From NCBI GenBank assembly GCA_018303515.1, contig JAGVXZ010000025.1:1-37391 (forward strand): 37,391 nt of DNA. Reading direction: 5' to 3'. A program made the translations under genes and the position numbers. This stretch comes from Candidatus Woesearchaeota archaeon. GTDB taxonomy: Archaea > Nanobdellota > Nanobdellia > SCGC-AAA011-G17 > GW2011-AR18. This document shows, in pieces, positions 1 through 33,700 of this stretch (the first letter of the stretch is position 1; every line of letters begins with the position of its first letter). The notes beneath the pieces are model-generated. The model had not been told where the DNA came from. It saw only the letters and a list, made by a program, of their open reading frames with translations, and ran no database searches.

Positions 1-615
1 TCCTACTTCATTCAGCTCTTTATATTCTTCAATTCCAATTCCAGCTCTAATTAAATTTTCAAAAACAAGTTGGGCACCTGTACAAAGATCACAATTGCTT
101 GGATTAATTATATTAATACTCACTTTTCCAACAATTCTATTCTCTTTAATACTAAAGAATGGTGGTAATATATCTGAAAAAACTAAACCATTACTTACTT
201 TTGTAAAACTTTTTCCAAAATCCAATTTTTCAATTTCTCCTTCTATCAAAAAAGCAGGTAATTTTTTTAAATCATATTTGCTTATATAATCAGAAGCCTC
301 AGAAGCTTTCAACGTAACTTCTTTTACAACCTTAACATTTAATTTCTTAAATTCTTCAACTTTATTTTCTATTAAGAAACATCCTTCACAAGATTTATCC
401 GGTTTAATTATTAAGATTTCTACATCAGCTGGTCTTGCTTCTTCAATAGACTTGTCTATTTCTTTAATTAAACTACTACTCAAAGTAAATGTTTGATAAA
501 TATTAAAAATTAAAAGAATTAATAGAAGAAAAGCTAGAGTTTTAAACCACTTTAAAAAGTCAATTTTATCTAAATTAAACTTTCTAAGATCCAATTTAAT
601 CTTTTCTTCTACCAT
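1..615 (-). CDS. membrane-anchored thioredoxin-fold / protein-disulfide-oxidoreductase-like protein; C-terminus lies beyond the window edge
   Basis: Absent from the ORF track because no stop lies in the window. ATG at 615..613, and the frame stays open for all 205 codons to base 1. My translation starts MVEEKIKLDLRKFNLDKIDFLKWFKTLAFLLLILLIFNIYQ (one N-terminal TM helix). Two CxxC motifs follow (KSCEGCF and SNCDLCT), suggesting two Trx-like half-domains as in archaeal PDO-type oxidoreductases. The family assignment is inference. Confidence 0.6.
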   Translation of the reverse strand, partial: MVEEKIKLDLRKFNLDKIDFLKWFKTLAFLLLILLIFNIYQTFTLSSSLIKEIDKSIEEARPADVEILIIKPDKSCEGCFLIENKVEEFKKLNVKVVKEVTLKASEASDYISKYDLKKLPAFLIEGEIEKLDFGKSFTKVSNGLVFSDILPPFFSIKENRIVGKVSINIINPSNCDLCTGAQLVFENLIRAGIGIEEYKELNEVG

Positions 616-628
616 TTTAAATTAAAAA

Positions 629-648
629 CTAACACCCTCCTACCATTT
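629..648. repeat. 20-nt exact direct repeat, copy 1 (ctaacaccctcctaccattt)
   Basis: Identical to 846..865. On the minus strand it reads AAATGGTAGGAGGGTGTTAG, i.e. MVGGC-stop. Confidence 0.9.
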
Positions 649-841
649 GTGGAAGATTATCCAAGCTATTTCCTGAAACACTTGCACTTCCAGAACTACT
701 TGATGATACTGAAGAGCTACCACCTAACTTTACTTTACCATCATCTATTTTGTCCTTTAATGTAGTTAATTGAAATGCTTGAACTCCTGATACTATTACA
801 AGCAAAGCTACAACAACTACTAAAACCATATTCTTATTCAT
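629..841 (-). CDS. small signal-anchored Ser-rich protein with C-terminal LPQMVGGC tail
   Basis: 70-aa ORF with an ATG start. Hydrophobic N-terminus (MVLVVVVALLVIVSGVQA), then a Ser/Gly-rich linker, ending LDNLPQMVGGC-stop. Only a 4-nt gap to the upstream gene on the same strand. Confidence 0.6.
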   Translation of the reverse strand: MNKNMVLVVVVALLVIVSGVQAFQLTTLKDKIDDGKVKLGGSSSVSSSSSGSASVSGNSLDNLPQMVGGC

Positions 842-845
842 TTTT

Positions 846-865
846 CTAACACCCTCCTACCATTT
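846..865. repeat. 20-nt exact direct repeat, copy 2 (ctaacaccctcctaccattt)
   Basis: Identical to 629..648. The GGAGG inside it (857..853) lies 11 nt upstream of the ATG (841) of the next gene. Confidence 0.9.
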
Positions 866-1544
866 CAGGTAAACTTTGTGAAGCCTGGCCTCCATTACCT
901 GCTACCTTCATAGTTAATTCCACCATATACTTCGGAAACCATATTGCTTTCCATCTCATTACTTCTTTTAAAATTTCCGCGTCCGTATAATCAGTATTCA
1001 GCATTAACCAAAAAGTTAAAGTTTGTACTGCAGGATTATGCTTACATCCACATCTTGATTTTCCTTTTGCATCAACCCCCTGTGCTCCGATTCCACAACA
1101 AAATTCACATGAAATGCCTCTTGGATTAGCTGCTAAATTCAGATATCTACTCCATACTTCTGGGTTTGTCTCTACCTTTGCCTTTAATGCATTATATCCG
1201 GATGCCATTTTATCCAAAGAAACAACTGGATCATCAAATGAGATTCCCATCTCTGCACCATATTCAGGAACCCCCCTAGGAACAATCATAGAAATTGCAT
1301 CATCTGCTGCCCTTACATCCTGCACGGGAAACAAAGCTGCAATTGCATCTGCAGTTGATTTAATTTCATTAATATTAACATTACTTAAATCTCCACCAGA
1401 AAAAGAAGTATATCTTATCCCTAAACTACTTGTGATTAAAGATAGTTGCACTTGATTAAATATCAGAAAAACTGCCACAACCCCTATGAGAATAAATCCA
1501 GATCTATTAAGTGAACTTTTTTCTTTCACAATTTTAGTGGACAT
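846..1544 (-). CDS. exported Cys-rich (PCYCGC-motif-like) putative metal-binding protein with C-terminal LPEMVGGC tail
   Basis: 232-aa ORF with an ATG start and an N-terminal TM anchor (GFILIGVVAVFLIF). The Cys cluster ISCEFCCGIGAQGVDAKGKSRCGCKHNP resembles, by eye, the PCYCGC-motif family seen next to copper genes. Ends QSLPEMVGGC-stop. Confidence 0.7.
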   Translation of the reverse strand: MSTKIVKEKSSLNRSGFILIGVVAVFLIFNQVQLSLITSSLGIRYTSFSGGDLSNVNINEIKSTADAIAALFPVQDVRAADDAISMIVPRGVPEYGAEMGISFDDPVVSLDKMASGYNALKAKVETNPEVWSRYLNLAANPRGISCEFCCGIGAQGVDAKGKSRCGCKHNPAVQTLTFWLMLNTDYTDAEILKEVMRWKAIWFPKYMVELTMKVAGNGGQASQSLPEMVGGC

Positions 1545-1643: not shown

Positions 1644-2162
1644 TCACCATTTCCCAGAAAAATATATCAACTTTGTTTTTTTCTTATCAATTCTTTTAAT
1701 TAAACCTTTTTTTTCCAGATCCTGAAGAATTTGACTAAGCTTTGCCTTAGACATTTTCACTTTTAAAAATAGACTACTTTGTGAAATTCCTTCATCATCT
1801 TTTATAAATTTAATGACTTCCTTTGTTGATTCATCTAACCCCATTAACAAAATTTTAAATTTTTCATCAGATTCTAACTTAGATTTATTTTCTTCCAGTC
1901 TCTTTAATATTTCTTCTTCACCTTTATAAAAAAAGAGAAGATAAGCACCTAAAGCAATTATAAATCCTACAACTCCAAAAGCAAAATGTGTTATGTTAAG
2001 ATTTTTTTCAATTGATTTACATCCAGGTTCTTGAAAACAACCCATTTTTTCACTTTTACTATCCAACTGCGAAAAAATATTAACAAGTATAAAACCAACA
2101 ACAAAACCTAATGCAAGAACTACAATTCCTATTTTTTTAAGATTCACAATAAAAAGATACAT
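1644..2162 (-). CDS. membrane-tethered winged-helix transcription regulator (2 TM + C-terminal wHTH)
   Basis: 172 aa. TM1 is IGIVVLALGFVVGFILVNIF, followed by a loop GCFQEPGCKSIEKNLNITH and TM2 FAFGVVGFIIALGAYLLFFY. A MarR/ArsR-like wHTH follows (ISQSSLFLKVKMSKAKLSQILQDLEKKGLIKRI). Same architecture as 6253..6732. Confidence 0.7.
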   Translation of the reverse strand: MYLFIVNLKKIGIVVLALGFVVGFILVNIFSQLDSKSEKMGCFQEPGCKSIEKNLNITHFAFGVVGFIIALGAYLLFFYKGEEEILKRLEENKSKLESDEKFKILLMGLDESTKEVIKFIKDDEGISQSSLFLKVKMSKAKLSQILQDLEKKGLIKRIDKKKTKLIYFSGKW

Positions 2163-2497: not shown

Positions 2498-2899
2498 TCA
2501 ATTCCATATAAAAATTCTTTTATCCATTTTAGGAATACCTTCAATTACGAGAGAATATTCCCCAATTATTTCTTCATTAGTTTTAAAAATTAGTAAACCT
2601 CCAGAATGATGGCTTCCCAGTATTGGTACAGAATCTGGTTTAATTTTTTTACCATTAATCTCTAAGGTTGTAATCTCTTTAAGATTATAAGGTTCTAAAT
2701 TAACAGAATGAGTATTTACCAAGATACTAAATTCTAATTTCCCCTCACCAATTTGTGTTGGTGTAATATCAATACTTACATCGCCATCTTCAAAGCTCCC
2801 TGTAGATTTAGTTTCAAATTTTTGTTCTTGAAACTCATTATTTTCTTTTGTACATCCAAATATTAATACAATTATAAGAATAATAAATAATCTCTTCAT
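2498..2899 (-). CDS. secreted lipoprotein, beta-rich, with His pair (GSHHSGG)
   Basis: 133 aa with a lipobox-like LIFGC (Cys16). It overlaps the upstream gene 2896..3300 by 4 nt, which suggests an operon. No family recognised. Confidence 0.65.
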   Translation of the reverse strand: MKRLFIILIIVLIFGCTKENNEFQEQKFETKSTGSFEDGDVSIDITPTQIGEGKLEFSILVNTHSVNLEPYNLKEITTLEINGKKIKPDSVPILGSHHSGGLLIFKTNEEIIGEYSLVIEGIPKMDKRIFIWN

Positions 2900-3300
2900 T
2901 TTTTCTTTCTCCCTTTAATATAACTAATTATGCTAACGAAAACTAAAATACTTCCAATTATCCAGAAAACAATTCTAAAATTTTCTAGAAATTTAAAGGG
3001 TATCCCTGCAAGAATAATTCCTAGATTAAATAAAATTAATTCTCTTGAAATACATCCCCTTTTAATATAAAAATAAAAGACTAGAATTAACATTAAAACT
3101 GCAAATATCCAGACTGGAACTGCAATTTTTGTAAGAAAAAAGAGAGGCATACCTATAAGTGTAATCCCTACTAAACTTAAGAGAGTAATCAAACCAAGAC
3201 AAATATTATGACACACTTGCCAAGATCCCAATATACTAGTAATACCAGAGAGACTTCCAGTTATCCCTACAAGTTTTTCTTTAAATCTGTTAATAACCAT
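2896..3300 (-). CDS. 4-TM membrane protein with CxxxC in first helix (WQVCHNICLG)
   Basis: 134 aa, ATG at 3300, four hydrophobic helices. It sits in the operon between the TRASH micro-gene and the lipoprotein gene. Confidence 0.6.
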   Translation of the reverse strand: MVINRFKEKLVGITGSLSGITSILGSWQVCHNICLGLITLLSLVGITLIGMPLFFLTKIAVPVWIFAVLMLILVFYFYIKRGCISRELILFNLGIILAGIPFKFLENFRIVFWIIGSILVFVSIISYIKGRKKK

Positions 3301-3306
3301 TTGTAA

Positions 3307-3462
3307 TCAATGACAACATGAACCTCCATGATTTTTTTGACTCTTTTCAAATTCATTAACACATTTTTCACTACAGAACCACTTGCCATTTTTTGTAATA
3401 CCACTTCCTTTTTTTTCTTTCATCCCACATACGGGATCTTTTTTCTTAAAAATTTCTAACAT
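3307..3462 (-). CDS. 51-aa TRASH/YHS-domain metal-binding micro-protein
   Basis: Not in the ORF track (under 60 aa). ATG at 3462..3460 is preceded by GGAGGG. My translation is MLEIFKKKDPVCGMKEKKGSGITKNGKWFCSEKCVNEFEKSQKNHGGSCCH-stop (TGA at 3309..3307). DPVCGM...WFCSEKC is the TRASH/YHS Cys signature, also present at the CopA N-terminus. Confidence 0.7.
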   Translation of the reverse strand: MLEIFKKKDPVCGMKEKKGSGITKNGKWFCSEKCVNEFEKSQKNHGGSCCH

Positions 3463-3508: not shown

Positions 3509-5857
3509 CTATTTTGGCCTCCATCTTTTCATAATTAAAGAATTGCCTACAACACTAATTGAAGAGAACCCCATTGCTATACCTGCTATAACAGGTGATA
3601 ATAACCATCCCGTAAAAGGAAATAAAACACCAGCAGCAACTGGAATTCCAACAAGATTATAGAAAAAAGCCCAAAACAAATTTTGTTTTATTTTTCTCAT
3701 AGTATATTTACTTAAATCAATGGAATAAATAACATCTCTAAGATCATCTTTAATTAAAACAATGTCACCTGATTCTATTGCTACATCAGTACCAGTACCT
3801 ATTGCAATTCCTATATCTGATTGTGTTAATGCTGGTGCATCATTAATGCCATCTCCTACCATTGCCACAACCCCCTTTTTTTGTAGTTCCTTAATATTTT
3901 CAGATTTTTCAGAAGGCAATACTTCTGCTAAAACTTGATCAATATCTAATTGCTTTGCTATTGCTTCCCCGGTTCTTTTATTATCTCCGGTTATCATAAC
4001 AACTTTGATTTTTCTTTCATGTAATTTTTGTATAGCCTCTAAAGAATGCTCTTTTAAAGTATCAGCCACCGCAATACAACCAATAAAACTATTATTAACA
4101 GAAACCAACATTACAGTTTTACCTTCACGTTCTAATTTAGATATTTTTTCCTCATGTGATCTAAAATTTATTTTATTAGAATTCATTAATTCTCTGTTTC
4201 CTAACAATATTTTTTTATTCCCATAATTTCCACTAACCCCTTTTCCAGTAAACGATTCGAAACCTTTGACTTCCGGAATTTTCATTCTCAAACTTTTTGC
4301 TTTCATTACTATCGCTTCACCAAGCGGATGTTCAGAATGTTTTTCAACTAATGCTCCAAATTTAATTAGATCATTATCTTTATACTTATTTAATGATAAG
4401 ATATCTGTAACTTCTGGTTTACCTTTCGTTAATGTCCCAGTCTTATCAAAAACAACAGTATTTATTTTAGAAAATTTTTGTAATGCATCAGCAGTTTTTA
4501 TTAAAACCCCTCTCTCAGCTCCTAACCCTACACCCACCATAATAGCTGTCGGTGTAGCTAATCCTAAAGCACAAGGACAAGCTATAATTAGTACAGCTAC
4601 AAAAGCAGTTAATGCAAATGTTACTCCTGCTCCTAAAAAATACCACACTAAAAATGTTATTATTGCAAGAATAACAACTATTGGTACAAAGTAGTAAGAA
4701 ACTTTATCAGCAAGCTCTTGAATTGGTGCTTTTGATCCCTGTGCTTCTTTAACTAATTTTACAATTTGTGCTAATACAGTATCTGATCCAACTTTAGTAG
4801 CCTTAAATTTAAAACTACCAGTCTTATTGATTGTTGCTCCAATCACTTGATTTCCTTTATTCTTTTCTACAGGAATACTCTCTCCCGTAATCATACTTTC
4901 ATCCACAGAAGAATTTCCAGAAATTACAATCCCATCAACTGGAATTTTAGCTCCAGGTTTAACTAAAATAATATCTCCAACTCTAACATTCTCAATTGGA
5001 ATTCTAATTTCTTTATTATTTCTAATTACTATTGCAGTTTTTGCTTGTAAACCAATTAATTTTTTAATTGCTGCTGAAGTTTTTCCTTTAGTAATTACTT
5101 CTAAATATTTTCCAAGTAAAATAAATGTAATTAAAACCCCAGCCACTTCAAAATAAGCACCTTCACCCCCCAAAAACATAACACTGACACTATAAATAAT
5201 TGCAGCCCATACTCCTATAGTTATAAGGGAATCCATATTTGGAGTAAAATTAACTAAAGATTTTAAACCGGAACTAAAAATCTTCCAACCCGCAATTAGA
5301 ACTGGTATAATTAATATTACCTGTAAAAAATAGAGTTTGAATTCAGATACATTTAGAGAAGGCCATACAAACAAATCTAAGAACATAAAATATAATAATG
5401 GTAATGAAAAAATTAAAGAAATAATAAATCTCCTTTTTAAATTTTTAATTTCCTTAAGCTCATCTTCTTCATGAGACGATTCTTTAGTAACATGATTTTC
5501 ATAGCCAGCATTTTTAACAGCTGCCATTAATGAACTTTCATTAGTTTTAGAAGAATTGAATCTTATTTCAACCTCTTTTACAGCAACATTCGTTTTAACA
5601 TTACTAACTCCACCCACCCTCAACAACGAAGTTTCTACTATTCCAGCACAATGTTGTGATCCCATCCCAGGAACAGATAAGATTACAATATTATTTGCAT
5701 TATTTTCTTTTTTAATTTCAATTTTCTTTTCATCTTTTCCAAGAAATTTATCTAAACAGTCTTTATTACAAAAATAATAAGTCTTATTATTTGAAGTATG
5801 TATAAATTTAGTTCGTTTTGGATTTACTTCCATCCCACAAATTGGATCCTTAACCAT
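3509..5857 (-). CDS. copA: copper(I)-translocating P1B-type ATPase with N-terminal TRASH/YHS domain
   Basis: P-type ATPase motifs are present: [20 protein letters not shown] (CPC), FDKTGTLT and GDGINDAP. The N-terminus reads KDPICGMEV...YYFCNKDC (TRASH). An HMA-like domain follows, with GMGSQHCAG in place of GMTCxxC. The track ORF begins at a TTG (5887). The ATG at 5857 gives MVKDPICGM and overlaps the upstream stop by 1 nt (TGATG). Confidence 0.95.
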
Positions 5858-6183
5858 CAAATCTTTCTCCCAATTAGATGAACACAATATATTCCCATAT
5901 GTTCATCAATTAATTTCATTAGGGGTTTAATTGTTTTTTTATTTAAGGAATAATATCTTTGCTTTCCTTTTTGTTCAGAAAAAACCATCCCGCATCTTTC
6001 TAATCTTTTTAGGTTATGGGAAACCATTGTTTGTTCAAATTTAGTATAATTACAAATCTCTCCAACATTAAGATTCTTATTTCTTAACACATTTAAAATT
6101 TTCAATCTGTTTGGGTTTGATAAAGACCCAAAAAATAAATTGTAAGTTTCAAGTGAATGTTTCATATATGAAATAAGCATCAT
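5857..6183 (-). CDS. ArsR/SmtB-family metal-responsive transcription regulator
   Basis: 108 aa with the typical ArsR wHTH core: [50 protein letters not shown]...RYYSLN. It is translationally coupled to copA. Confidence 0.85.
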
Positions 6184-6252: not shown

Positions 6253-6732
6253 ATGGAAAATTTTGATACAAAGAATTTAGGTAAGATCCTAATAATCTTA
6301 TCAATTTTACTTCTATTCATACTCACGTCTGTTAAAATGAACTATGATAAAAATGGAGCTGTCCTTTGTGAAGCAATTGCTGAAAGCCCATCAATGGATA
6401 TGGAAAACTGTCCATATCATAATAACAATAATTCTTGGTTAATCGTTTTAGCATTTAGTATTGTATTCCTAATTCTTGGTGGAGGAATTTTTCTTTTTTT
6501 AAGAAATAAGCAATTAGATTATAAGCAGATTGACTTTTCAAGATTAAACGAAGAAGAAAAACAAATTTATAATCTAATTAAAGAAAAAGATGGTTCAATT
6601 TATCAAAGTGAAATTATGAAAGAACTTGAATTTTCAAAGGTTAAAACCACAAGACTTCTTGATCTTATGGAAAGCAAAAAGATTTTAGAAAGAAAAAGAA
6701 GGGGCATGACAAACATTATCATTCTTAAATAA
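6253..6732 (+). CDS. membrane-tethered winged-helix transcription regulator (2 TM + C-terminal wHTH), paralogue of 1644..2162
   Basis: 159 aa. TM1 is ILIILSILLLFILTSV, followed by a loop LCEAIAESPSMDMENCPYH (Cys/Met/His rich) and TM2 WLIVLAFSIVFLILGGGIFLF. A wHTH follows (SIYQSEIMKELEFSKVKTTRLLDLMESKKILERK). A TATA-like tttatata lies about 25 nt upstream of the ATG. Confidence 0.7.
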   Translation: MENFDTKNLGKILIILSILLLFILTSVKMNYDKNGAVLCEAIAESPSMDMENCPYHNNNNSWLIVLAFSIVFLILGGGIFLFLRNKQLDYKQIDFSRLNEEEKQIYNLIKEKDGSIYQSEIMKELEFSKVKTTRLLDLMESKKILERKRRGMTNIIILK

Positions 6733-6733
6733 A

Positions 6734-8260
6734 CTAATTTACAACAATCTTACCTTTCATTCCAGCTTCTGTATGCCCTGGAAGATTGCAAGTAAACAAA
6801 AACTCTCCAGTTTTTTTTGGAGTAAACTCTACTAATGTGGTACTATCACCTTTAAGAATTTCATGTACATTTAACTCATCAATATCAAAAGAATGAGTAA
6901 AATCAAGATTTTTTATTTCCATTACAGTTTTAGTATCCACTTTTATATTTATAATATTAGGTGAAAATCCCATACTATACGCATTCATATGAATTATCTC
7001 TCCCGGAGTTACTGTGACTTCAGTGTTTTGCGTATCAATATTCGCTGGAATAAGTAGTAATGCCCAAAGAGAGAAAATTATAATTAAGAAAATTAATTGA
7101 AGAATTTTAACAAAGAAATTAGAATATGCTTTTTTAATTAAATATGCACTCCACATTCCACTAATTATTAAAATAATTGCCTTTGAATAACTAATAAAAC
7201 CATCTTTGAAGTGTAAAGTTGGTCCAAGAAAACCAAAGAAAATTGTAAAGAACATAATCCCAAATACTATTGGAAGATAATAATAACCAGATTCTGTTAA
7301 AAATCCTTTTAATTTTATTTGATTAAGTTTAGCACAAACAATCCCAAACAAACTAAAAACTAATAAAAAGATTCCAATAGAGAATACAAAATCGAATCCA
7401 CGAAGTAAATATCCAGTAACTTCTAAATTAAATAATAAAATTATTTTTCTTATTAAAAAAACTCCTTTATTTGTTAATATAAAACTTAAACCCAAAAGTG
7501 CAATTATAAAATAAGATTCACTTAATGTAAAGTTAATTCTATTTTCTATTTCCTTTCCAGGTCTCGTTATTCCAATGTGTGCAGAAGAATAAGGACAATT
7601 TTTTATACAATTAGTACATATCAAACAATCCTTATTACTTTGAATATTTGGAACATCATTAAACATTGGACAAGGTTGTTCTTTACGTCCTAATATGCAC
7701 CATTTTTCACTACATTTTTCACATATTTTTTTTCTTACTCGAACTCCTATAATCGAAAGTCTGCTAAAAACTCCAAGTAAGGTTCCAATCGGGCAAAATA
7801 ATCTACAAAATAATCCTCTTTTAAGAAAAATACCTGTAAGAATAGATAAAATTAGAAAACCAATGAAGAAACTAAGAGTTATTTTTGTAGATAAGAATAA
7901 TCCTGAAATCTGTTCAATATATACAACAATAAAGAATAATACAAACGGAATAAAACTCCATTTTCTAAAATTAATTAGTTTGCCCTCATTTAATTTATTT
8001 CCCAACTGGTTAGTAAATCTTAAGGGGCATAAAAATCCACACCAACTTCTTCCAAGAAAAAAGAGTGTAAGATATAATAATGGCCACCAAAGGATCCATA
8101 CAACCCACATAGCAGACTTACTAGTAAATTCGTAAGAAAAGATCTTAATTGTTCCAAGAAGAAAAGTTAAAATTATTCCTATAAAAATAATTAACCCAAT
8201 TACCCTTATAAAAAGATTTATTTTTTTAATTACAAGATTAACTCTTTCTTCTAATTCCAT
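6734..8260 (-). CDS. NapH/CcoG-like polyferredoxin membrane protein fused to a C-terminal cupredoxin (type-1 copper) domain
   Basis: 508 aa. It has two CxxxCP motifs (WCGFLCP, FCRLFCPIG) and Fe-S Cys clusters (CEKCSEKWC...CP, CLICTNCIKNCP). Many TM helices follow. The C-terminus carries H...C-x4-H-x4-M ligands (FTHSFDI...FTCNLPGHTEAGMKGKIVV). Confidence 0.8.
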   Translation of the reverse strand: MELEERVNLVIKKINLFIRVIGLIIFIGIILTFLLGTIKIFSYEFTSKSAMWVVWILWWPLLYLTLFFLGRSWCGFLCPLRFTNQLGNKLNEGKLINFRKWSFIPFVLFFIVVYIEQISGLFLSTKITLSFFIGFLILSILTGIFLKRGLFCRLFCPIGTLLGVFSRLSIIGVRVRKKICEKCSEKWCILGRKEQPCPMFNDVPNIQSNKDCLICTNCIKNCPYSSAHIGITRPGKEIENRINFTLSESYFIIALLGLSFILTNKGVFLIRKIILLFNLEVTGYLLRGFDFVFSIGIFLLVFSLFGIVCAKLNQIKLKGFLTESGYYYLPIVFGIMFFTIFFGFLGPTLHFKDGFISYSKAIILIISGMWSAYLIKKAYSNFFVKILQLIFLIIIFSLWALLLIPANIDTQNTEVTVTPGEIIHMNAYSMGFSPNIINIKVDTKTVMEIKNLDFTHSFDIDELNVHEILKGDSTTLVEFTPKKTGEFLFTCNLPGHTEAGMKGKIVVN

Positions 8261-8379: not shown

Positions 8380-8820
8380 ATGAAAAAGAAAATCTTAATT
8401 GGATTATTTATAATTATATTATTCATTACAGCAGCATGTACAAAAAATGATTTAACAGATAATGCAGTTCTTTACAAATCAACATTTTGTGGTTGTTGTG
8501 AGGGTTACACCTCAAAACTAACAGGTGCTGGCATGAATATTGACGTAAAAAATATGGATGATGTATCACCAATAAAAGTAAAACACAAAATTCCTAGCGA
8601 AATGCAAAGTTGTCATACAATGGAAATTGAAGGTTACTTTGTAGAGGGTCACGTTCCATTTGAAGCTATACAAAAATTACTTAACGAAAAACCAGATATT
8701 GATGGAATTGCTCTTCCTGGAATGCCATCTGGTTCACCTGGAATGCCTGGAATGAAAAATGGTCCATTCATAATTTATTCCTTAAAAGATGGTGAAGCAA
8801 AGGAATTTATGACTATTTAA
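8380..8820 (+). CDS. DUF411/CopG-family periplasmic-type copper-resistance lipoprotein
   Basis: 146 aa with SD AAGGAGGT and a lipobox ITAAC. Hallmark motifs are present: FCGCCEGY, SCHTMEIEGYFVEGHVP and LPGMPSGSPGMPGM. Confidence 0.85.
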   Translation: MKKKILIGLFIIILFITAACTKNDLTDNAVLYKSTFCGCCEGYTSKLTGAGMNIDVKNMDDVSPIKVKHKIPSEMQSCHTMEIEGYFVEGHVPFEAIQKLLNEKPDIDGIALPGMPSGSPGMPGMKNGPFIIYSLKDGEAKEFMTI

Positions 8821-9481: not shown

Positions 9482-9591
9482 TGCGGAGGACAGGTTTCGA
9501 ACCTGCGCAGGCACTAAGCCACTGGATATCTCATCAGTTACTCTAAGAATGATCTTAAGTCCAGCCCGTTTGACCACTCCGGCACCCCCGC
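9482..9591 (-). tRNA. tRNA-Leu (anticodon UAA) with a 26-nt intron
   Basis: The reverse complement folds as a cloverleaf. The acceptor stem is GCGGGGG/CCTCCGC (one G:U pair) and the D arm is CCG-GAGTGGTCAAA-CGG. The anticodon stem is CTGGA/TCCAG with loop CTTAAG[intron]A. The long variable arm is GGC-TTAGT-GCC and the T arm is GCAGG-TTCGAAA-CCTGT. The discriminator is A and no CCA is encoded. Confidence 0.85.
9528..9553 (-). other. tRNA intron at the canonical 37/38 position (boundary can slide by 1 nt)
   Basis: ATCATTCTTAGAGTAACTGATGAGAT interrupts the anticodon loop directly 3' of UAA-G. Removing it restores a 7-nt loop and a 5-bp stem. Confidence 0.75.
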
Positions 9592-9707: not shown

Positions 9708-10322
9708 TTACTTTAAAATCTTTCCAGTTTTCAAATACCACATATACAAATCTAATTCTCCCAAAGACATTTTAACTTCATCAGCAATTTTTCTAAATTC
9801 CTTCTCAATTTCTAAATACCCTTTTTTATTTATTTTCTTAGGTTTTTCTATTCTCCCATTATCAGCCATTAAGTTAATTATATGCCTATCTAAAATAGAA
9901 TAATCAAAATATCCAACATTGCGTAAGAAATGTGAAGCCTCTTTATATCCCAATCCTTTAATATTCTTAACTAACCATTCTCTAGGATTATTCAAAGAAA
10001 CGATTATCTTTTTAATAGATTTATAGTTCCTTGCATCAACAATATAACTCCCTTTATTATTATGGAATCTATGTTTGTTTCTCTTTATTGTTTCTCTTAT
10101 TTCTTCTAAGTTTTTATTCAAGAATCCTTTATGACCTAACTCATTTTGAATATTGATTGCAGTAGATGCTTTAGAATTTGCAGTTAATAAACAGAAACAT
10201 AATTCACTAAACCATTCTTTATCATTTTTAGTTTCAAAAGATGAAAATTCTCTTAATCTTGATTCTATTACCACTTTTATTTCAGAATTTCTAAGTTTAT
10301 TAATATCTTGAATAAGTCTCAT
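9708..10322 (-). CDS. ogg: 8-oxoguanine DNA glycosylase/AP lyase, archaeal Ogg2 (MJ0724) type
   Basis: 204 aa with near-colinear similarity to M. jannaschii Ogg as I recall it (EWFSELCFCLLTAN, IKGLGYKEASHFLRNVGY...ILDRHI, LDLYMWYLKTGKILK). HhH-GPD fold. Confidence 0.9.
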   Translation of the reverse strand: MRLIQDINKLRNSEIKVVIESRLREFSSFETKNDKEWFSELCFCLLTANSKASTAINIQNELGHKGFLNKNLEEIRETIKRNKHRFHNNKGSYIVDARNYKSIKKIIVSLNNPREWLVKNIKGLGYKEASHFLRNVGYFDYSILDRHIINLMADNGRIEKPKKINKKGYLEIEKEFRKIADEVKMSLGELDLYMWYLKTGKILK

Positions 10323-10780
10323 AATGTTTGAATAAAATACAGGACTTCTTTGGAATGATTTTTTGGATTTACTTTATCATAAACTTGGATGACTTTATTT
10401 GACTTATCTAACACATAAGTTATTCTACTAATACCCAAATATTCTATTCCCATAAATTTTCTCTTCCCATAAACACCATATTTCTTTGAAACAGAAAAAT
10501 CAATATCAGATAACAATAATATTTTTAAATTATGTTTATCACAAAATTTAGTTTTAGTTTTTTCATCTCCTCCAGAAATCCCAATAACTTGAATATTTAA
10601 TTTTTCAAATTCTTTAAGATCGCTAGTAAACTCTTTAGCCTCTATTGTACATCCAGGAGTATTATCTTTTGGATAGAAATAAACTACTTTATATTTGGAT
10701 TTACTTAAAGAATGAACTTTACCTTCCTTATCCTTTAATTTAAACTCAGGAGCTTTATCACCAATTTTAAGTAATACCAT
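10319..10780 (-). CDS. bcp: thiol peroxidase / peroxiredoxin Bcp
   Basis: 153 aa with the YFYPKDNTPGCTIEA peroxidatic-Cys motif. It overlaps ogg by 4 nt. Confidence 0.9.
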   Translation of the reverse strand: MVLLKIGDKAPEFKLKDKEGKVHSLSKSKYKVVYFYPKDNTPGCTIEAKEFTSDLKEFEKLNIQVIGISGGDEKTKTKFCDKHNLKILLLSDIDFSVSKKYGVYGKRKFMGIEYLGISRITYVLDKSNKVIQVYDKVNPKNHSKEVLYFIQTL

Positions 10781-16109: not shown

Positions 16110-16670
16110 TTAAAATCTACTAGAAACAACATCCCAATCAATTGCATCTATAAAAGATTTAATGTAAGAAGCTCTATCCATACCATAATCAAGAATAAAA
16201 GCATGTTCAAACACATCCATAACTAATAAAGGAACACATCCACTCAAATGCCCAACATCATGTTCATTAATCCATGTATTAAATATTCTATCTCCTTTTT
16301 TATCATAAACCATTATTACCCATCCAATACCTCTTAATTTTCCACAAGAAATAAAATCCTCTTCACATTTTTCTAGAGAACCAAAATCTTCATTTAATTT
16401 TTCCATTAATTTTAAATTTTTAAGCTCTTTTTTTTCTTTAGTAATATTTTCAAAATATAATTCATGTAATCTCATTCCATTAAATTCCCACCCAAACCTT
16501 CTTTTCAGCTCGGCCCATTCTGGTGTTCCAGATTCAATTGATTTTAACTTTTCAATTAATAAATTTGTATTTTTCACATAACCATTATACAACCCAAAAT
16601 GTGTTTCTAATAATTTATTGCTAAAACCAGATGTCCCTAAAATTTTACTATAATCTTTAGTAGTATACAT
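16110..16670 (-). CDS. Fe/Mn-family superoxide dismutase
   Basis: 186 aa with metal-ligand contexts LETHFGLYNGY, MRLHELYF and MDVFEHAFILDY (the D-x-[WF]-E-H-A motif). Confidence 0.85.
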   Translation of the reverse strand: MYTTKDYSKILGTSGFSNKLLETHFGLYNGYVKNTNLLIEKLKSIESGTPEWAELKRRFGWEFNGMRLHELYFENITKEKKELKNLKLMEKLNEDFGSLEKCEEDFISCGKLRGIGWVIMVYDKKGDRIFNTWINEHDVGHLSGCVPLLVMDVFEHAFILDYGMDRASYIKSFIDAIDWDVVSSRF

Positions 16671-18134: not shown

Positions 18135-18713
18135 TTAGATTTTTCCAACTAAATCTAATCCAGGTTTCAAGGTTTTACTTCCTGGTTTCCATGAGGCAGG
18201 ACAAACTTCTCCATCATGCTCACGAACAAATTTAGCAGCTTGTAATTTACGTAACAATTCATCAGCACTTCTTCCTATGGAATTATCATGTAATTCATAA
18301 CATTTCAAAATTCCATCTGGATCAATAATAAAACTTCCACGTAAAGATAGTCCTTCACCTTCAATATAAGTTCCAAATTGTTTACACAATTTTCCAGTTG
18401 GATCTGCTAACATGGGATATTTTATCTTTTTAATAGACTCTGAATTATCATGCCAAGCCTTATGTACAAAAACAGTATCAGTACTTACAGATAATAACTC
18501 AGCCCCTTCACTTTGAAACTCCTTATATTTATTAGCTAATTCAACTAATTCAGTTGGACAAATAAAAGTAAAATCTGCCGGATAAAAAACTAAACATACC
18601 CATTTTCCTTTATAAGAACTTAACTTAATTTTCTTAACTTCTTCATTATGATACGCCTGAACTTCAATATCTTCAATTTTGTCCCCAATTTTTACAATCT
18701 TATAATCTTCCAT
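18135..18713 (-). CDS. typical 2-Cys peroxiredoxin (AhpC/Prx1 type)
   Basis: Peroxidatic DFTFICPTE and resolving EVCPASW motifs are present. The track ORF starts at a TTG (18719), and the ATG at 18713 (MEDYKIV) is preferred. Confidence 0.9.
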   Translation of the reverse strand: MEDYKIVKIGDKIEDIEVQAYHNEEVKKIKLSSYKGKWVCLVFYPADFTFICPTELVELANKYKEFQSEGAELLSVSTDTVFVHKAWHDNSESIKKIKYPMLADPTGKLCKQFGTYIEGEGLSLRGSFIIDPDGILKCYELHDNSIGRSADELLRKLQAAKFVREHDGEVCPASWKPGSKTLKPGLDLVGKI

Positions 18714-18808
18714 AAACAAAAGAGAATTAATTTATTTATATCTTTTATTGTATTTTAGTTTTACTTAATTTCAAAGGGTATATTAATCTATTGTAACTTA
18801 ACAAATTT

Positions 18809-30277: not shown

Positions 30278-30763
30278 ATGCAATGCCCATACTGTTTAAC
30301 AGAAGATACAAAAGTCCTTGAGACTAGAGAAAATGATAATTCCACAAGAAGAAGACGTGAATGTTTGAAATGTGAAAAAAGATTTACCACTTATGAAAGA
30401 GTTGAATCATTAGATATCACAGTAATAAAAAAGAATGGTTCAAAAGAATCATTTGATAGAGAAAAGTTTAAGAGAAGTTTGCTTAAGGCATGTGAAAAAA
30501 GACCTGTTACGTTAGAAGTAATAGATAAAAATGTAGACAAACTTGAAACGAAATTAAGATCTCTAAATTCCACAGAAATAAACTCAAAGTTTTTAGGGCA
30601 AATTGCCATGCGTGCATTAAAAAATATTGATAATGTGGCCTACATAAGATTTGCATCTATTTACAAAGAATTTGAAGATGTGGGTGATTATGAAAAAGAA
30701 ATTATAAAAATAAAAGGGGTAATTAAAAATGAACGAACAACAAATTCAAATACAAAAAAGTAA
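30278..30763 (+). CDS. nrdR: NrdR transcriptional repressor (Zn-ribbon + ATP-cone)
   Basis: 161 aa starting MQCPYCLTEDTKVLETR...RRRRECLKCEKRFTTYE, followed by an ATP-cone (VIKKNGSKESFDREKFKRSL...VAYIRFASIYKEF). Confidence 0.9.
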   Translation: MQCPYCLTEDTKVLETRENDNSTRRRRECLKCEKRFTTYERVESLDITVIKKNGSKESFDREKFKRSLLKACEKRPVTLEVIDKNVDKLETKLRSLNSTEINSKFLGQIAMRALKNIDNVAYIRFASIYKEFEDVGDYEKEIIKIKGVIKNERTTNSNTKK

Positions 30764-33700
30764 AATTGAATTAACTGAAAACCAATTAAAAGTTATAAAA
30801 GATAAATATCTTAAGGATTCTCCCACAGTTGAAGATTGGCTTTATGGAATTGCAACAAATGTTGCATTGGGAGATATTCTTCATATTCCTGGTGTTAATG
30901 AAAATCAAATCTTTGATGGTGTAAAAATAACAAAAGAGATTACAGAACCTATAAGGGGAAATATTTCTAAGGTTTATCTTTTTCATAAAGGAATAAATGA
31001 ATACAATATAAGGAATGATAACATTAAGAAATTTTTAGAGAATTTAAAAGAACTCGCAACTACTGATATAAAATGTAAAAATATTGTAGAAGAGACTGCA
31101 CAGAAATTTTATAATTTAATGTCTAATTTTGAATTTTTACCAAATTCTCCAACTTTAATGAATGCAGGAAGGGATTTACAACAGTTAAGTGCATGTTTTA
31201 GAGAAGATCAGCCTATAATGACTGCAAATGGAATAAAACCAATTATTGAGATTAAACAAGGCGACCGAGTTCTAACTGCTTCAGGTAATTACAAAGAAGT
31301 TACTCATGTAATGCAAAGATTTGTTGAAAGTTATAGGGTAATAGATGTATGGAAACTTCCAAATAAAACTCTGCGTGTAACAGACGAACATCCAATATTA
31401 TGTTTAGATAAAGAATCAAAAAAACCAATATGGAAATTAGCCGGTAATCTTCAAGAAGAAGATTTCGTAGCAGTTTCATACCCAAAACAAATAGTAGATC
31501 TAAAAAAATTAGAAGTAATTAATTACATGGATTCTAAATTCGTAGTTCATGAAAATAAAATATATAAATTAAATAAAGATAAAAGATGTCCAAGATATAA
31601 TAAACAAATAAAACCAGTCTATAATGAGATAGATGTGGATGCAGACCTAATGAAGATTTTTGGATATTTTTTAAGTGAAGGGGATATAGATGGAAGAGAT
31701 AGTGTGAGATTTACCTTCAATTCTGATGAATTAGAATATATGGAAGATGTAATTTATTTAATGAAAAAAAAATTTGGTTTAGGATCTAAGATTGAAAAAT
31801 CTAATTCTGGTCACTGGTCGAATGTACGCTTCCATTCAATTATTCTAGTTGGATTATTTGAAAAAATTTTAGGCAAAGGTTTCAGCAAAAAAAGGGTTCC
31901 CTCTTGGATATTAACTCTCCCAAAAGAAAAACAAAAGGGATTATTATTTGGTTTATTGAGAGGGGATGGTTATAGTTTCCAAAATCGTCACAATACAAAT
32001 ATAAAAGCAGTACTTTCAAATAAAGATTTGGTTTATTGTATTTGGGCAATATTTGCAAGATTAGGTATTTTATCATCATTCAAGAAAAATAATCTTCAAA
32101 AATTAAGTACAACTAATTCATATACTTGCCAATTAAATGGTTTTGAATCTGGGAAGCTCTTTAATGAAATATTTGTAGGGAGAGAATTTAAGGGTCTCAG
32201 CCAGTTAAATATGAGGCGTGTTAAATGCTTATGTATAGGAGAAATGTTTTATCTACCAATAAAAAATATTACCGTTGTGTTCGAACCAACCACGGTCTAC
32301 AATTTCGAGGTTGAAGGTGAACACACATACGTTGCAAATAATATTGCTGTTCACAATTGTTACGTATTGCCTGTTGAAGATTCAATTGAAGGTTGGTTAA
32401 AAGCAGTAACTTCTGCAGGAATAATTCATAAGTCTGGCGGTGGTACAGGATTTTCAGTTTCAAGAGTAAGGCCTAAAGGTTCTAATGTTAAATCTACAAA
32501 AGGTGTTGCATCAGGCCCCTTATCTCCTTTAAGGATGATAGATGGAATGACTGCAGAAATTAAACAGGGTGGGCAACGAAGGGGAGCGAACATGGGAATC
32601 TTATCAGTGCATCATCCTGATATAAAAGATTTTATTTCCATTAAAAAAACACCTGGGCAATTAGAAAATTTCAATATTTCAGTTGCAATTGACGATGAGT
32701 TTATGGAAGCAGTCAGAACAAATTCAGAGTATGATTTAATTGATCCTAACACAAATAAAGTTGTAAGAAAAGAATCTGCAAGAAAAATTTGGGATGAAAT
32801 GGTAAAGGGTGCATGGGAAACTGGAGACCCTGGCTTTGTTGTTATTGATAGAATTAATAATACAGATTCAAATCCAACTCCCCATCTAGGTTTGATTGAG
32901 TCAACTAATCCTTGCGGTGAACAACCTTTATTACCAAATGAGCCCTGTTTTGCACCCGATACATTAATTACAACAAAGGGGGGTCTAGAAACTATAGAGG
33001 GGTTATATCAAAAACAAATAAATGGTGAAAAGATTATCATTGCAACTGATAATATTGTAGATAGCAGAGTGGGAATTGAGTTTAAACCTTGTTTAGTTTC
33101 AAAAACAGGATATAAAAAAATAGTCGAAGTAAACTTAAACAACGGGCAGGAAATTAAGGTCACACCAAACCACCAGATTTTTACAACTAAAGGATGGAAA
33201 AGAGCAGAAAAATTAACAAGAGAAGATGAAGTATTTATTCAAAGTAGTTCAATATATCAAAGTGTAGACGAAGGGATCGTTTCTTCTGAAATAGTGGAAG
33301 AATCACTTCTTGGTTGGTTATGTGGTGATGGATGGTTTACGAGAGGAAAAAGATATTCGATAGGTATCTGTTTTGGACAAGAAGAAACGTTTGCACAAAA
33401 AAAATTAATTCCACTATTTAAGAAATATTTCAACTGCAACTCAAACAGTTATATTGATAAAAATGATGTGATACAAATCTCAACAGAAAAAAATTATGCA
33501 GTTGAGAAATTAATTGAATTAGGTTTAAAACCTGGAAGGGCCCCGCATAAAGAGATTCCAGATTATATTCTCACAACAAAAAAAGAAAAAATATCTAGTT
33601 ATTTAGGAGCATTATTTAGTGCAGATGGTGAAGTAAGTTTATATAGGAGGAGGGTAAGATTTACAAGTGCTTCACCTAAATTAATTAAACAAGTACAGCT

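What the first reader, a model, noticed from the sequence alone, without database searches (positions are those of the whole stretch)
629..1544. Two unrelated exported proteins share an LPxMVGGC-COOH tail encoded by a 20-nt identical repeat that also carries a Shine-Dalgarno
Seen: the 70-aa protein ends LDNLPQMVGGC-stop and the 232-aa protein ends QSLPEMVGGC-stop. The stretches 629..648 and 846..865 are identical nucleotide for nucleotide, although the rest of the proteins are unrelated (Ser-rich linker vs Cys-rich domain). Both have a single N-terminal TM/signal anchor, so the tail should be extracytoplasmic. On the coding strand the repeat contains GGAGG, which for the upstream copy lies 11 nt before the ATG of the next gene, so the tail codons may double as an RBS. 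The TRASH micro-protein in the same island ends similarly, in HGGSCCH. Inference, option (a): a C-terminal processing, sorting or lipid/thioester-attachment signal (LPx... followed by Gly-Gly-Cys, with no TM segment after it, so unlike sortase or archaeosortase signals). Option (b): a flexible Met/Cys Cu(I)-binding tail. Option (c): recent gene conversion. I do not recognise this motif as a described sorting signal, but I cannot check databases.
Basis: partly seen in the sequence, partly recalled or inferred. Interest (0 to 1): 0.65.

Follow-up and report, generated by a model that had tools for sequence, protein, structure and literature searches.

The report
Shared cysteine tail, two envelope proteins
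Two neighbouring membrane-anchored proteins of a tiny archaeon end in the same eight residues, finishing on a cysteine. This pairing is conserved in over a hundred related loci from ultra-small archaea and bacteria, usually beside thioredoxin-like and copper-handling genes, and matches no described protein family.

Summary
Positions 629..648 and 846..865 are identical, and the 70-aa and 232-aa minus-strand proteins end in LPQMVGGC and LPEMVGGC.

It is not a local curiosity. 116 of 120 homologues of the 232-aa protein end in MVGGC, and the terminal Cys is kept even in distant members.

A DNA scan found the tail in pairs, one large and one small protein, in DPANN archaea and CPR bacteria. No third cargo family carried it.

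The core cassette is:
- a large protein with a Cys5-His domain (no fold match in the PDB);
- a small protein, which is just an anchor, a linker and the tail;
- a membrane-anchored protein with two or three thioredoxin-like units, often next to CcdA.

About half of the loci, including this window, also carry copper genes (CopA, YHS, cupredoxin, DUF411).

Where Met becomes Gln in one tail, the partner's tail is usually Gln too (13 of 15 pairs). Within genomes the two tails share more synonymous codons than codon usage predicts, which points to concerted evolution.

GGAGG in the upstream tail is enriched when the small gene follows tightly.

My best reading, which is inferred, is an exposed cysteine arm in an envelope copper/thiol relay kept reduced by CcdA and the thioredoxin-like protein. 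A sorting signal is not supported.

The parts
846..1544 (-). Gene for the 232-aa 'large' tail protein: N-terminal membrane anchor, all-alpha domain with an invariant CE[FY]CC...CGCxH cluster (C146, C149, C150, C165, C167, H169), and the C-terminal LPEMVGGC
   Evidence: ORF. 163 homologues, none with a Pfam hit. Invariant columns. AF2 pLDDT 90. No Foldseek match in the PDB, no PDB sequence match, no Pfam or NCBIfam match.
846..872 (-). Tail codons L-P-E-M-V-G-G-C plus stop of the large protein
853..857 (-). GGAGG inside the Gly-Gly codons of the large protein's tail, 11 nt upstream of the ATG of the small gene; probable Shine-Dalgarno for the tightly coupled small gene
   Evidence: Position. 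Enrichment test across genomes.
629..841 (-). Gene for the 70-aa 'small' tail protein: anchor ending in VQAFQL, a Ser/Gly-rich linker, and LPQMVGGC. Its only Cys is the last residue.
   Evidence: ORF. 30 homologues. Alignment A3. 71 small ORFs from other genomes.
629..655 (-). Tail codons L-P-Q-M-V-G-G-C plus stop of the small protein
629..648 (.). Downstream copy of the 20-nt identical repeat
846..865 (.). Upstream copy of the 20-nt identical repeat
1..615 (-). 5' part of the third cassette gene (it runs off the window): a membrane-anchored protein of thioredoxin-like units with CEGC and CDLC sites
   Evidence: Translation. Weak PDO/thioredoxin hit. tblastn to the L001 partner, E 2e-14. The full-length partners in 61 loci have 2-3 CxxC sites.
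1644..2162 (-). Membrane-bound winged-helix regulator (DUF7343-type) with an outward-facing Cys pair (GCFQEPGC), directly upstream of the cassette
   Evidence: Pfam. The same kind of protein sits next to the cassette in 16 loci. Sequence.
2896..3300 (-). 134-aa multi-pass membrane protein with WQVCHNICLG in a helix; recurrent neighbour of tail cassettes
   Evidence: No Pfam match. Found in 10 of 119 loci.
3307..3462 (-). 51-aa YHS/TRASH-type metal-binding micro-protein
   Evidence: Pfam YHS, E 9e-6.
3509..5887 (-). CopA-type P1B copper ATPase
   Evidence: ORF. CPC-containing relatives lie in about 20 tail loci.
5857..6183 (-). ArsR-family metalloregulator
   Evidence: Pfam HTH_5, E 6e-12.
6734..8260 (-). 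508-aa membrane protein with a Fer4_5 domain and a C-terminal cupredoxin domain
8380..8820 (+). DUF411 (CopG-like) protein
   Evidence: Pfam DUF411, E 3.5e-26.

Best explanation
What is shown. The two genes are the first two members of a conserved three-gene envelope cassette found in DPANN archaea and CPR bacteria:
- a large protein: membrane anchor, a Cys5-His domain with no known fold relative, and the tail;
- a small protein: the same kind of anchor, a flexible linker and the same tail, with nothing else;
- a membrane-anchored protein with two or three thioredoxin-like units, each carrying a CxxC site. It is often next to, and once fused to, the CcdA/DsbD-type membrane electron transporter.

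The cassette, the invariance of the terminal Cys, the pairing, the concordance of the two tails, the copper-gene context and the overlap with a ribosome-binding site are all shown here.

What is inferred. The [LV]Px[MQ]VGGC end places a single reactive thiol, next to the free carboxylate, at the very end of the chain outside the cell. I propose that this terminal cysteine is a working arm. It takes up Cu(I) (or another thiol-seeking ion) or forms a mixed disulfide. It then docks into one shared receptor site, either the Cys/His pocket of the large protein or a CxxC site of the thioredoxin-like partner. CcdA and the thioredoxin-like protein keep it reduced.

On this reading the system is an envelope copper and thiol-stress relay. 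It would work like Scs or DsbD systems, with a C-terminal arm in the manner of the SoxY, MerA or Ctr1 tails. Extracytoplasmic location, metal or disulfide chemistry, and the identity of the receptor are all inferred.

The nucleotide identity of the two tails in this window is a by-product of concerted evolution (short gene conversion) between the two genes. The Gly-Gly codons of the upstream tail also serve as the ribosome-binding site of the small gene.
For: Conservation of the tail:
- 116 of 120 homologues end in MVGGC. P226, M228, G230, G231 and C232 are invariant in alignment A1.
- The family is small, with 279 clusters at E <= 0.001. Among the 150 listed cluster representatives the last residue is Cys in nearly all complete proteins.

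Cysteine count: 42 of 45 large tail ORFs have CE[FY]CC..CGCxH, 41 of them with exactly six Cys, five in the domain and one in the tail. Small proteins have one Cys.

Pairing: the tail occurs in pairs in DPANN and CPR genomes. Where 3 kb of flank is available, 15 of 15 large genes have a small gene nearby and 12 of 15 have the thioredoxin-like gene.

Cassette and redox partners:
- Gene order is large, small, thioredoxin-like, with DsbD_TM and DoxX alongside.
- The thioredoxin-like partner is in 68 of 119 loci and CcdA in 30. It has 2-3 CxxC sites, and L212 encodes a CcdA fusion.

Copper context: of 119 loci, a CopA-type ATPase is in 23, cupredoxin in 16, DUF411 in 14 and YHS in 10, and 60 have at least one metal-linked neighbour (those four plus the CHNIC membrane protein and the window's lipoprotein). 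In the window, CopA, YHS, ArsR, cupredoxin and DUF411 all lie within 9 kb. Some small proteins carry a Met/His-rich insert, ETYEEMMARMHPDQ.

The two tails change together:
- There are 13 Q-Q pairs, 2 Q-M pairs, 41 M-M pairs and no M-Q pair.
- The Q-Q pairs sit at seven or more separate places in a neighbour-joining tree.
- Met is replaced almost only by Gln and never by Leu.

Structure: the tail is modelled with pLDDT around 87 in a model of mean 90. It is therefore predicted to pack against the domain rather than be disordered.

Fusions: some large proteins are fused to a multi-pass membrane domain carrying GCPxCG. That domain is also a stand-alone neighbour in at least 18 loci.

Published parallels: Cu-induced Scs thiol oxidoreductases and their Cu(I) binding (PMC10907172, PMC8900818, PMC3322552), and the SoxY carrier arm (PMC5336275).
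Against: - There is no experimental datum on any member.
- About half of the loci show no copper gene within the DNA I held. The core partners (thioredoxin-like protein, CcdA) fit a purely redox role equally well.
- Gln replaces Met in 24 of 150 representatives, which weakens the case for Met as a Cu(I) ligand.
- I could not read the model's coordinates, so contact between the tail and the Cys cluster is not shown.
- A column-by-column search for domain positions that follow the M/Q state gave only signals explained by relatedness.
- The concordance of the tails may be produced by gene conversion alone. The recent switches L125 and L157 differ at only 1 of 18 nt. That does not require a shared receptor.
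- CcdA is not visible in this window, because the window ends inside the third gene.
Confidence: 0.45

Rival explanations
1. A purely thiol-disulfide system for oxidative folding or disulfide isomerisation, with no role for metal. The large protein's Cys cluster would hold redox-active disulfides. The terminal Cys of both proteins would act as a shuttle thiol that forms mixed disulfides with the thioredoxin-like partner, as the flexible shuttle cysteines of Erv2/Ero1 do, or as ERp44 captures tail cysteines.
For: - The most constant partners are the thioredoxin-like protein (68 of 119 loci) and CcdA (30 of 119), and one locus encodes them fused.
- The large protein has an even total of six Cys.
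- One representative carries a fusion to an FKBP folding catalyst.
- A monothiol WCxxT thioredoxin-like neighbour occurs in 21 loci.
- Half of the loci show no copper gene.
Against: - Copper genes are present far more often than position by chance would give in genomes of about 1 Mb.
- Some small proteins carry Met/His-rich inserts.
- The invariant His169 next to the CGC motif suggests a metal site.
- The window itself is a copper island.
Confidence: 0.22
2. The tail is a carrier arm on which a small-molecule intermediate, for example sulfane sulfur or a persulfide, is covalently carried between enzymes, as on the GGCGG end of SoxY.
For: - The end of the chain is Gly-Gly-Cys, and the small protein has a flexible linker.
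- DoxX/DoxD-like genes sit next to the cassette in L001-L004.
- SoxY is a published precedent (PMC5336275).
Against: - No Sox, rhodanese, Dsr or other sulfur-enzyme genes appear among the recurrent neighbours.
- DoxX is present in only 4 of 119 loci.
- The carrier organisms have very limited metabolism (my own knowledge).
Confidence: 0.08
3. The tail is a recognition signal for processing, sorting or covalent anchoring. The terminal Cys would be lipidated or linked to the envelope by an enzyme not yet recognised.
For: - The motif is invariant and terminal, follows a Pro-containing stretch, and sits on exported proteins.
- Several uncharacterised multi-pass membrane proteins recur nearby.
Against: - Among the tail ORFs examined from the genome scan, only two cargo families carry the tail (apart from a few isolated chance or unclassified ORFs), and they are always encoded together.
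- Both proteins already have an N-terminal anchor.
- Nothing follows the Cys that could be cleaved, and no hydrophobic segment follows it.
- No sortase, archaeosortase, exosortase, rhombosortase or prenyltransferase-type neighbour recurs.
- No sorting-signal model in NCBIfam matches.
Confidence: 0.1
4. A meaningless local duplication or gene conversion confined to this genome.
For: - The two copies are identical over 20 nt.
- Within genomes the two tails share more synonymous codons than expected.
Against: - The motif is conserved at the protein level in more than 100 loci from two domains of life.
- Synonymous sites differ in most pairs: 36 of 41 M-M pairs are not identical.
Confidence: 0.02

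Closest known systems
Scs (suppressor of copper sensitivity) and DsbD/CcdA reductive pathways of the bacterial envelope
   Same: A membrane electron transporter of the DsbD_TM/CcdA type sits with exported or anchored thioredoxin-fold CxxC proteins. There is a genetic link to copper stress, and Cu(I) binding by the thiol proteins is reported (PMC10907172, PMC8900818, PMC3322552). Here CcdA and a multi-thioredoxin partner flank the cassette.
   Different: The two tail proteins have no counterpart in Scs or Dsb systems. They have no thioredoxin fold and no CxxC in the small protein, only a single terminal Cys. The hosts are DPANN archaea and CPR bacteria. No sequence similarity to ScsA-D was detected (Pfam and NCBIfam gave nothing).
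SoxY carrier protein with its C-terminal GGCGG swinging arm
   Same: An exported protein whose reactive cysteine lies in a Gly-rich C-terminal peptide and is presented to partner proteins (PMC5336275).
   Different: SoxY ends in GGCGG, not GGC. It has an Ig-like fold, pairs with SoxZ and sits in sox operons. None of that is present here.
C-terminal cysteine tails that hand over metal or electrons: MerA C-terminal Cys pair, Ctr1 HCH end, CCS CxC tail, thioredoxin reductase GCUG end (from my own knowledge, not checked in the paper library)
   Same: A flexible C-terminal segment carries the reactive Cys and moves it to and from a buried site.
   Different: Those tails are cytoplasmic, or belong to flavoenzymes or transporters. 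Here the tail is outside the cell, carries a single Cys as the very last residue, and is duplicated on a domain-less partner protein.
C-terminal protein-sorting signals (LPXTG/sortase, PGF-CTERM/archaeosortase, PEP-CTERM/exosortase, GlyGly-CTERM/rhombosortase)
   Same: A short conserved C-terminal motif containing Pro and Gly on exported proteins.
   Different: All of those signals are followed by a hydrophobic helix and basic residues, occur on many cargo families, and come with a dedicated enzyme. None of the three holds here.

Membership tests
Sortase LPXTG signal | LPXTG followed by a hydrophobic segment and a basic tail | tested here: not met
   The chain stops at the Cys, five residues after LPx, with no hydrophobic segment.
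Archaeosortase/exosortase/rhombosortase C-terminal signals (PGF-, PEP-, GlyGly-CTERM) | Motif plus a C-terminal transmembrane helix, many cargo families per genome, and a cognate sorting enzyme | tested here: not met
   There is no helix after the motif. Only two cargo families were found. No sorting enzyme is among the recurrent neighbours. NCBIfam has no hit.
Prenylation boxes (CaaX, Rab CC/CXC) | Cytosolic protein with Cys at position -4, or a terminal Cys pair | tested here: not met
   A single Cys is the last residue. The proteins have an N-terminal anchor and exported partners. The location itself is inferred.
SoxY | GGCGG end, SoxY fold/Pfam family, SoxZ partner, sox operon | tested here: not met
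   The end is GGC. There is no Pfam hit and no sox genes nearby.
HMA/CopZ-type metallochaperones | Ferredoxin-like fold with MxCxxC | tested here: not met
   No HMA hit. The model is all-alpha with a small Cys-rich hairpin.
DsbD/CcdA-thioredoxin reductive relay (as a system) | DsbD_TM-type membrane protein encoded with exported thioredoxin-fold CxxC proteins | tested here: met
   Met in related loci. In the window only the thioredoxin-like gene is visible, because the window ends there.
DsbD/CcdA-thioredoxin reductive relay (as a system) | Electron transfer from CcdA through the thioredoxin-like protein to the tail cysteine | not testable with these tools
   This needs biochemistry.
Any Pfam, NCBIfam or PDB family for the 232-aa and 70-aa proteins | Significant profile or fold match | tested here: not met
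   Pfam and NCBIfam gave none. PDB hmmsearch best E was 0.98. Foldseek against the PDB gave a best E of 4.3 for a model with pLDDT 90. The motif strings MVGGC, CEFCCG and CEYCCG do not occur as protein motifs in the paper library.

The most novel reading that the evidence does not exclude
A previously undescribed envelope system shared across domains by ultra-small DPANN archaea and CPR bacteria. Two single-pass proteins carry the same, jointly evolving C-terminal cysteine arm. One has a Cys5-His domain of new fold, and the other is a bare tethered thiol. Both would be serviced by a multi-thioredoxin protein and CcdA. This would be a new class of protein-tethered thiol carrier or chaperone for copper or oxidant defence in organisms that, as far as I know, lack small-molecule thiol buffers.
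Probability: 0.4. Interest if true: 0.75.

Novelty: new variant of a known kind. Interest (0 to 1): 0.62.

Why it matters
DPANN archaea and CPR bacteria are abundant, mostly uncultured, and full of unannotated genes. This analysis defines a compact cassette with sharp signatures that can be searched for:
- the tail [LV]Px[MQ]VGGC at the very end of the protein;
- the CE[FY]CC...CGCxH cluster;
- a partner with two or three thioredoxin-like units.

That gives annotators a handle on several families now labelled hypothetical. It also links them to copper and thiol stress at the cell surface, where these episymbionts meet their hosts and oxygenated groundwater.

If the terminal cysteine proves to be a metal or disulfide shuttle, it would add an extracytoplasmic, duplicated single-Cys arm to the short list of swinging-arm mechanisms. 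The large protein's domain would probably be a new metal- or redox-active fold.

The case also shows one short peptide module kept identical in two genes by concerted evolution while doubling as a ribosome-binding site.

Tried and rejected
- Family and structure libraries. Pfam and NCBIfam scans of both proteins gave nothing. A PDB profile search gave nothing. Foldseek against the PDB with a pLDDT-90 model gave nothing.
- Literature. Searches for MVGGC, CEFCCG, CEYCCG and for DPANN/CPR copper or thiol systems found no description.
- Fusions as clues. Pfam on ten long family members gave only one FKBP fusion and nothing for the N-terminal membrane domain.
- The GCPxCG membrane domain. BLASTP against the window's CHNIC protein showed no similarity. 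The homologue search found only 8 unnamed proteins. Its AF2 model reached only pLDDT 59, so I ran no fold search on it.
- Looking for the tail's receptor. I searched for domain columns that follow the Met/Gln state of the tail. Every signal was explained by relatedness.
- Tail contacts. I could not obtain model coordinates, so contacts between the tail and the Cys cluster were not measured.
- Readings rejected: sortase or archaeosortase-type signal, prenylation box, SoxY membership and a simple local duplication. The reasons are in the membership table and the rival explanations.
Full report
**1. The observation**

Positions 629..648 and 846..865 both read CTAACACCCTCCTACCATTT. With up to three mismatches allowed there are only these two copies in the window, and none is expected by chance.

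Both copies lie at the 3' ends of minus-strand ORFs: 629..841 (70 aa...LDNLPQMVGGC*) and 846..1544 (232 aa...QSLPEMVGGC*). The identical stretch covers two bases of the Gln/Glu codon, then Met-Val-Gly-Gly-Cys and the stop.

Given identical amino acids and the window's own codon usage, agreement at all five synonymous positions has a probability of 0.5-1.5%.

GGAGG on the coding strand lies at 857..853, 11 nt before the ATG of the 70-aa gene. The other copy is 20 nt before the next start at 615.

**2. The tail is a family signature, not a local accident**

The 232-aa protein has 163 homologues at E <= 0.001. None has a Pfam hit, and the named ones come from Woesearchaeota, Nanoarchaeota and similar lineages. 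Of the 120 listed, 116 end in MVGGC, usually as LPGMVGGC. Two are truncated, one ends in QVGGC and one in MIGGC.

In a 53-sequence alignment these residues are invariant:
- in the tail: P226, M228, G230, G231, C232;
- in the domain: C146, E147, C149, C150, C165, G166, C167, H169.

An exhaustive profile search of 1.8 billion cluster representatives finds only 279 clusters. Among the best 150, the endings are MVGGC in 78 and QVGGC in 24, with a few variants such as MVGSC, MRGGC, MIGGC and IVGGC. In nearly all complete proteins Cys is the very last residue.

The 70-aa protein also has a family. Its invariant residues are Q21, A22, Q24, L25 at the end of the anchor and L63, P64, M66-C70 at the end of the chain. 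Between them lies a low-complexity linker.

**3. A regular-expression census**

After translation, 76 loci hold genuine tail ORFs. The remainder are chance matches in other frames.

The genuine ORFs fall into two kinds.
- Large proteins: 42 of 45 carry CE[FY]CC[GS]...CGCxH, 41 of them with exactly six Cys.
- Small proteins of 50-116 aa with a single Cys.

In 42 loci both kinds are present, 200-900 nt apart.

Carriers are labelled as follows:
- DPANN archaea: Woese-, Pace-, Aenigm-, Nano-, Micr-archaeota and Diapherotrites;
- 'Methanosarcinales' bins;
- CPR bacteria: Paceibacterota, Magasanikiibacteriota, Uhrbacteria, Peribacteria;
- a few soil bins with other labels, which may be mis-binned.

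No third cargo family appeared. Where 3 kb of flank is available on both sides, 15 of 15 large genes have a small gene nearby.

**4. The cassette and its surroundings**

In long contigs the gene order is large, small, then a membrane-anchored protein of about 355 aa with three thioredoxin-like units, each with a CxxC. DoxX and a DsbD_TM/CcdA gene lie alongside.

The window has the same order on the minus strand. The ORF at 1..615 runs off the window, carries CEGC and CDLC, and matches the L001 partner.

Across 119 genuine loci (mean 6.9 kb) the neighbour counts are:

| Neighbour | Loci of 119 |
|---|---|
| Thioredoxin-like partner | 68 |
| CcdA | 30 |
| CopA-type ATPase (about 20 at 39% identity or more) | 23 |
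| Cupredoxin | 16 |
| DUF411 | 14 |
| YHS | 10 |
| At least one metal-linked neighbour (the four Cu genes above plus the CHNIC membrane protein and the window's lipoprotein) | 60 |

The partner has three CxxC sites in most DPANN forms and two in CPR forms. In L212 it is fused to CcdA.

Other recurrent neighbours:
- membrane-bound winged-helix regulators of the DUF7343 type;
- BlaI/CopY-type repressors with M48/M56 peptidases;
- several uncharacterised membrane proteins with Cys motifs inside helices, namely GCPxCG, ACCAHH and CHNIC;
- a monothiol WCxxT thioredoxin-like protein.

The GCPxCG domain is fused to the N-terminus of the large protein in several lineages.

The window itself is a copper island from 1 to about 8.8 kb. 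It holds the cassette, a DUF7343 regulator, the CHNIC protein, YHS, CopA, ArsR, a second DUF7343 regulator, a Fer4_5-cupredoxin fusion and DUF411.

**5. The two tails evolve together**

The one close homologue ending in QVGGC (P0051) has a small partner ending in QVGGC.

A metagenome scan for L-P-x-Q-V-G-G-C-stop gave 12 more Q-Q pairs and 2 pairs with Q in the large protein and M in the small one. The M scan gave 41 M-M pairs and no M-Q pair.

On a rough neighbour-joining tree of the large proteins, with tails removed, the Q-Q pairs sit at seven or more separate places among M-M pairs. At least three of these (L125, L134, L157) are nested among M-type relatives.

The Q codons and neighbouring synonymous sites often differ between the two genes. 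In the most recent switches (L125, L157), however, the tails differ at only 1 of 18 nt.

Over 54 distinct pairs there are 149 synonymous matches against 113 expected from local codon usage, and 5 fully identical pairs against 0.41 expected (simulation P < 5e-5 and P = 1.5e-4).

I read this as concerted evolution. Short conversion tracts occasionally copy one tail onto the other, and selection keeps the two alike. The window's 20-nt identity is one such case. It explains the nucleotide identity, not the existence of the motif. In 36 of 41 M-M pairs the codons differ while the peptide stays the same.

**6. The ribosome-binding site overlap**

I compared how often the tail codons contain GGAGG.

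| Tail | With GGAGG |
|---|---|
| Upstream tail, small gene starts within 8 nt of the large gene's stop | 10 of 13 (the other 3 read GGGGG) |
| Upstream tail, longer gap | 5 of 27 |
| Downstream tail | 8 of 41 |

The differences are significant (Fisher p = 0.001 and 0.0003). The choice of Gly codons in the upstream tail is therefore shaped by translation of the next gene. The downstream copy in the window also carries GGAGG, which fits its origin by conversion.

**7. Structure**

The AF2 model of the window's large protein has mean pLDDT 90. It shows an anchor helix (14-40), a disordered stretch (44-49), an all-alpha domain and a short Cys-rich hairpin (143-167). The last 20 residues are coil but have pLDDT about 87, which predicts that the tail packs on the domain.

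Foldseek finds no PDB relative; the best E-value is 4.3. I could not read coordinates, so contact between the tail and the Cys cluster remains untested.

**8. What it most likely does**

*Shown:* a terminal, invariant, single Cys on two co-encoded anchored proteins; a constant thioredoxin-like/CcdA partnership; frequent copper genes; and tails that stay alike.

*Inferred:*
- The domain and tail face outward. The N-termini before the anchors are basic, and the partners are CcdA-dependent exported thioredoxin folds.
- The tail Cys is a working thiol kept reduced by the path from CcdA to the thioredoxin-like protein.
- It binds Cu(I) or forms mixed disulfides.
- It is presented to one common site.

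The even count of 5 + 1 Cys, together with His169, suggests that C232 completes a metal site or a disulfide with the odd domain Cys. The small protein, which has nothing but the arm, would then act in trans as a tethered thiol.

Met is replaced by Gln and never by Leu. From my own knowledge, this recalls the Met/Gln axial-ligand alternation in cupredoxins. It could equally be a steric preference.

The nearest working analogues are the Cu-induced Scs and DsbD pathways (PMC10907172, PMC8900818, PMC3322552) and C-terminal arms such as SoxY (PMC5336275). I give this reading 0.45.

The rivals are:
- a metal-free disulfide relay, 0.22;
- a covalent anchoring or sorting signal, 0.10;
- a sulfur-carrier arm, 0.08;
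- an accident of duplication, 0.02.

**9. Novelty and verdict**

Neither protein matches any Pfam, NCBIfam or PDB entry, and the motif is absent from the searchable literature.

The system-level logic (CcdA, thioredoxin folds, copper) is of a known kind. The two tail proteins and the duplicated single-Cys arm are new. I therefore class it as a new variant of a known kind, with a substantial chance that it deserves to be called a new class once the chemistry is known.

The finding is real, general and testable.

Noticed in passing
window 6734..8260 (-) and 8380..8820 (+): A 508-aa membrane protein combines a Fer4_5 (NosR/NapH-like) domain with a C-terminal cupredoxin. Next to it is a strong DUF411/CopG-like gene. 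These extend the copper island well beyond the finding.
   Followed up: partly
window 1644..2162 (-) and 6253..6732 (+): Two membrane-bound winged-helix regulators of the DUF7343 type. The first has an outward-facing Cys pair (GCFQEPGC). The same kind of regulator sits beside the tail cassette in 16 other loci, so it may be a surface thiol or metal sensor.
   Followed up: partly
window 2896..3300 (-): A 134-aa multi-pass membrane protein with WQVCHNICLG inside a helix. It has no Pfam match and recurs in 10 of 119 tail loci.
   Followed up: partly
L036:267-923; P0082, P0153, P0155, P0157, P0161; stand-alone e.g. L203:2604-3065: An uncharacterised multi-pass membrane domain with an invariant GCPxCG in a helix and a C-terminal CxxC. 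It is fused to the large tail protein in some lineages and encoded next to the cassette in at least 18 loci. It has no Pfam match and only 8 unnamed homologues. Its AF2 model was too poor (pLDDT 59) for a fold search.
   Followed up: partly
L079:5204-5647 and 20 other loci: A membrane-anchored thioredoxin-like protein resembling the thioredoxin domains attached to VKOR. In most copies the active site is monothiol (WC[HKQ][YF]T instead of WCxxC). Such a site can only form mixed disulfides, which makes it a candidate partner for a single terminal Cys.
   Followed up: no
L041:3287-3793 and 21 other loci: A multi-pass membrane protein with an invariant ACCAHH motif inside a helix. It has no Pfam match and is a frequent neighbour of the cassette.
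   Followed up: no
L212 (693-aa ORF): A natural fusion of a CcdA/DsbD-type membrane domain with the thioredoxin-like partner of the cassette. This supports electron flow from CcdA to that partner.
   Followed up: no
L008, L031, L087, L105, L114, L117 (small tail ORFs): A subset of small tail proteins carries a Met/His-rich insert (ETYEEMMARMHPDQ or similar) before the tail, resembling Cu(I) Met motifs.
   Followed up: partly
window 9482..9591 (-): A 110-nt tRNA match in Rfam (44 bits) that ARAGORN did not report. It is probably an intron-containing archaeal tRNA.
   Followed up: no
window 30729..35501 (+): A ribonucleotide reductase large subunit interrupted by intein and LAGLIDADG segments (1590 aa).
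   Followed up: no
window 9708..10780, 16110..16670, 18135..18719 (-): A cluster of oxidative-stress genes close to the copper island: 8-oxoguanine glycosylase, two peroxiredoxins and an Fe/Mn superoxide dismutase.
   Followed up: no
anchors of window 629..841, 846..1544, 1..615 (-): All three cassette proteins have a polar Asn/Gln motif at the outer end of their single membrane helix: VQAFQL, FNQVQL and FNIYQT. This may mediate association of the three anchors in the membrane.
   Followed up: partly
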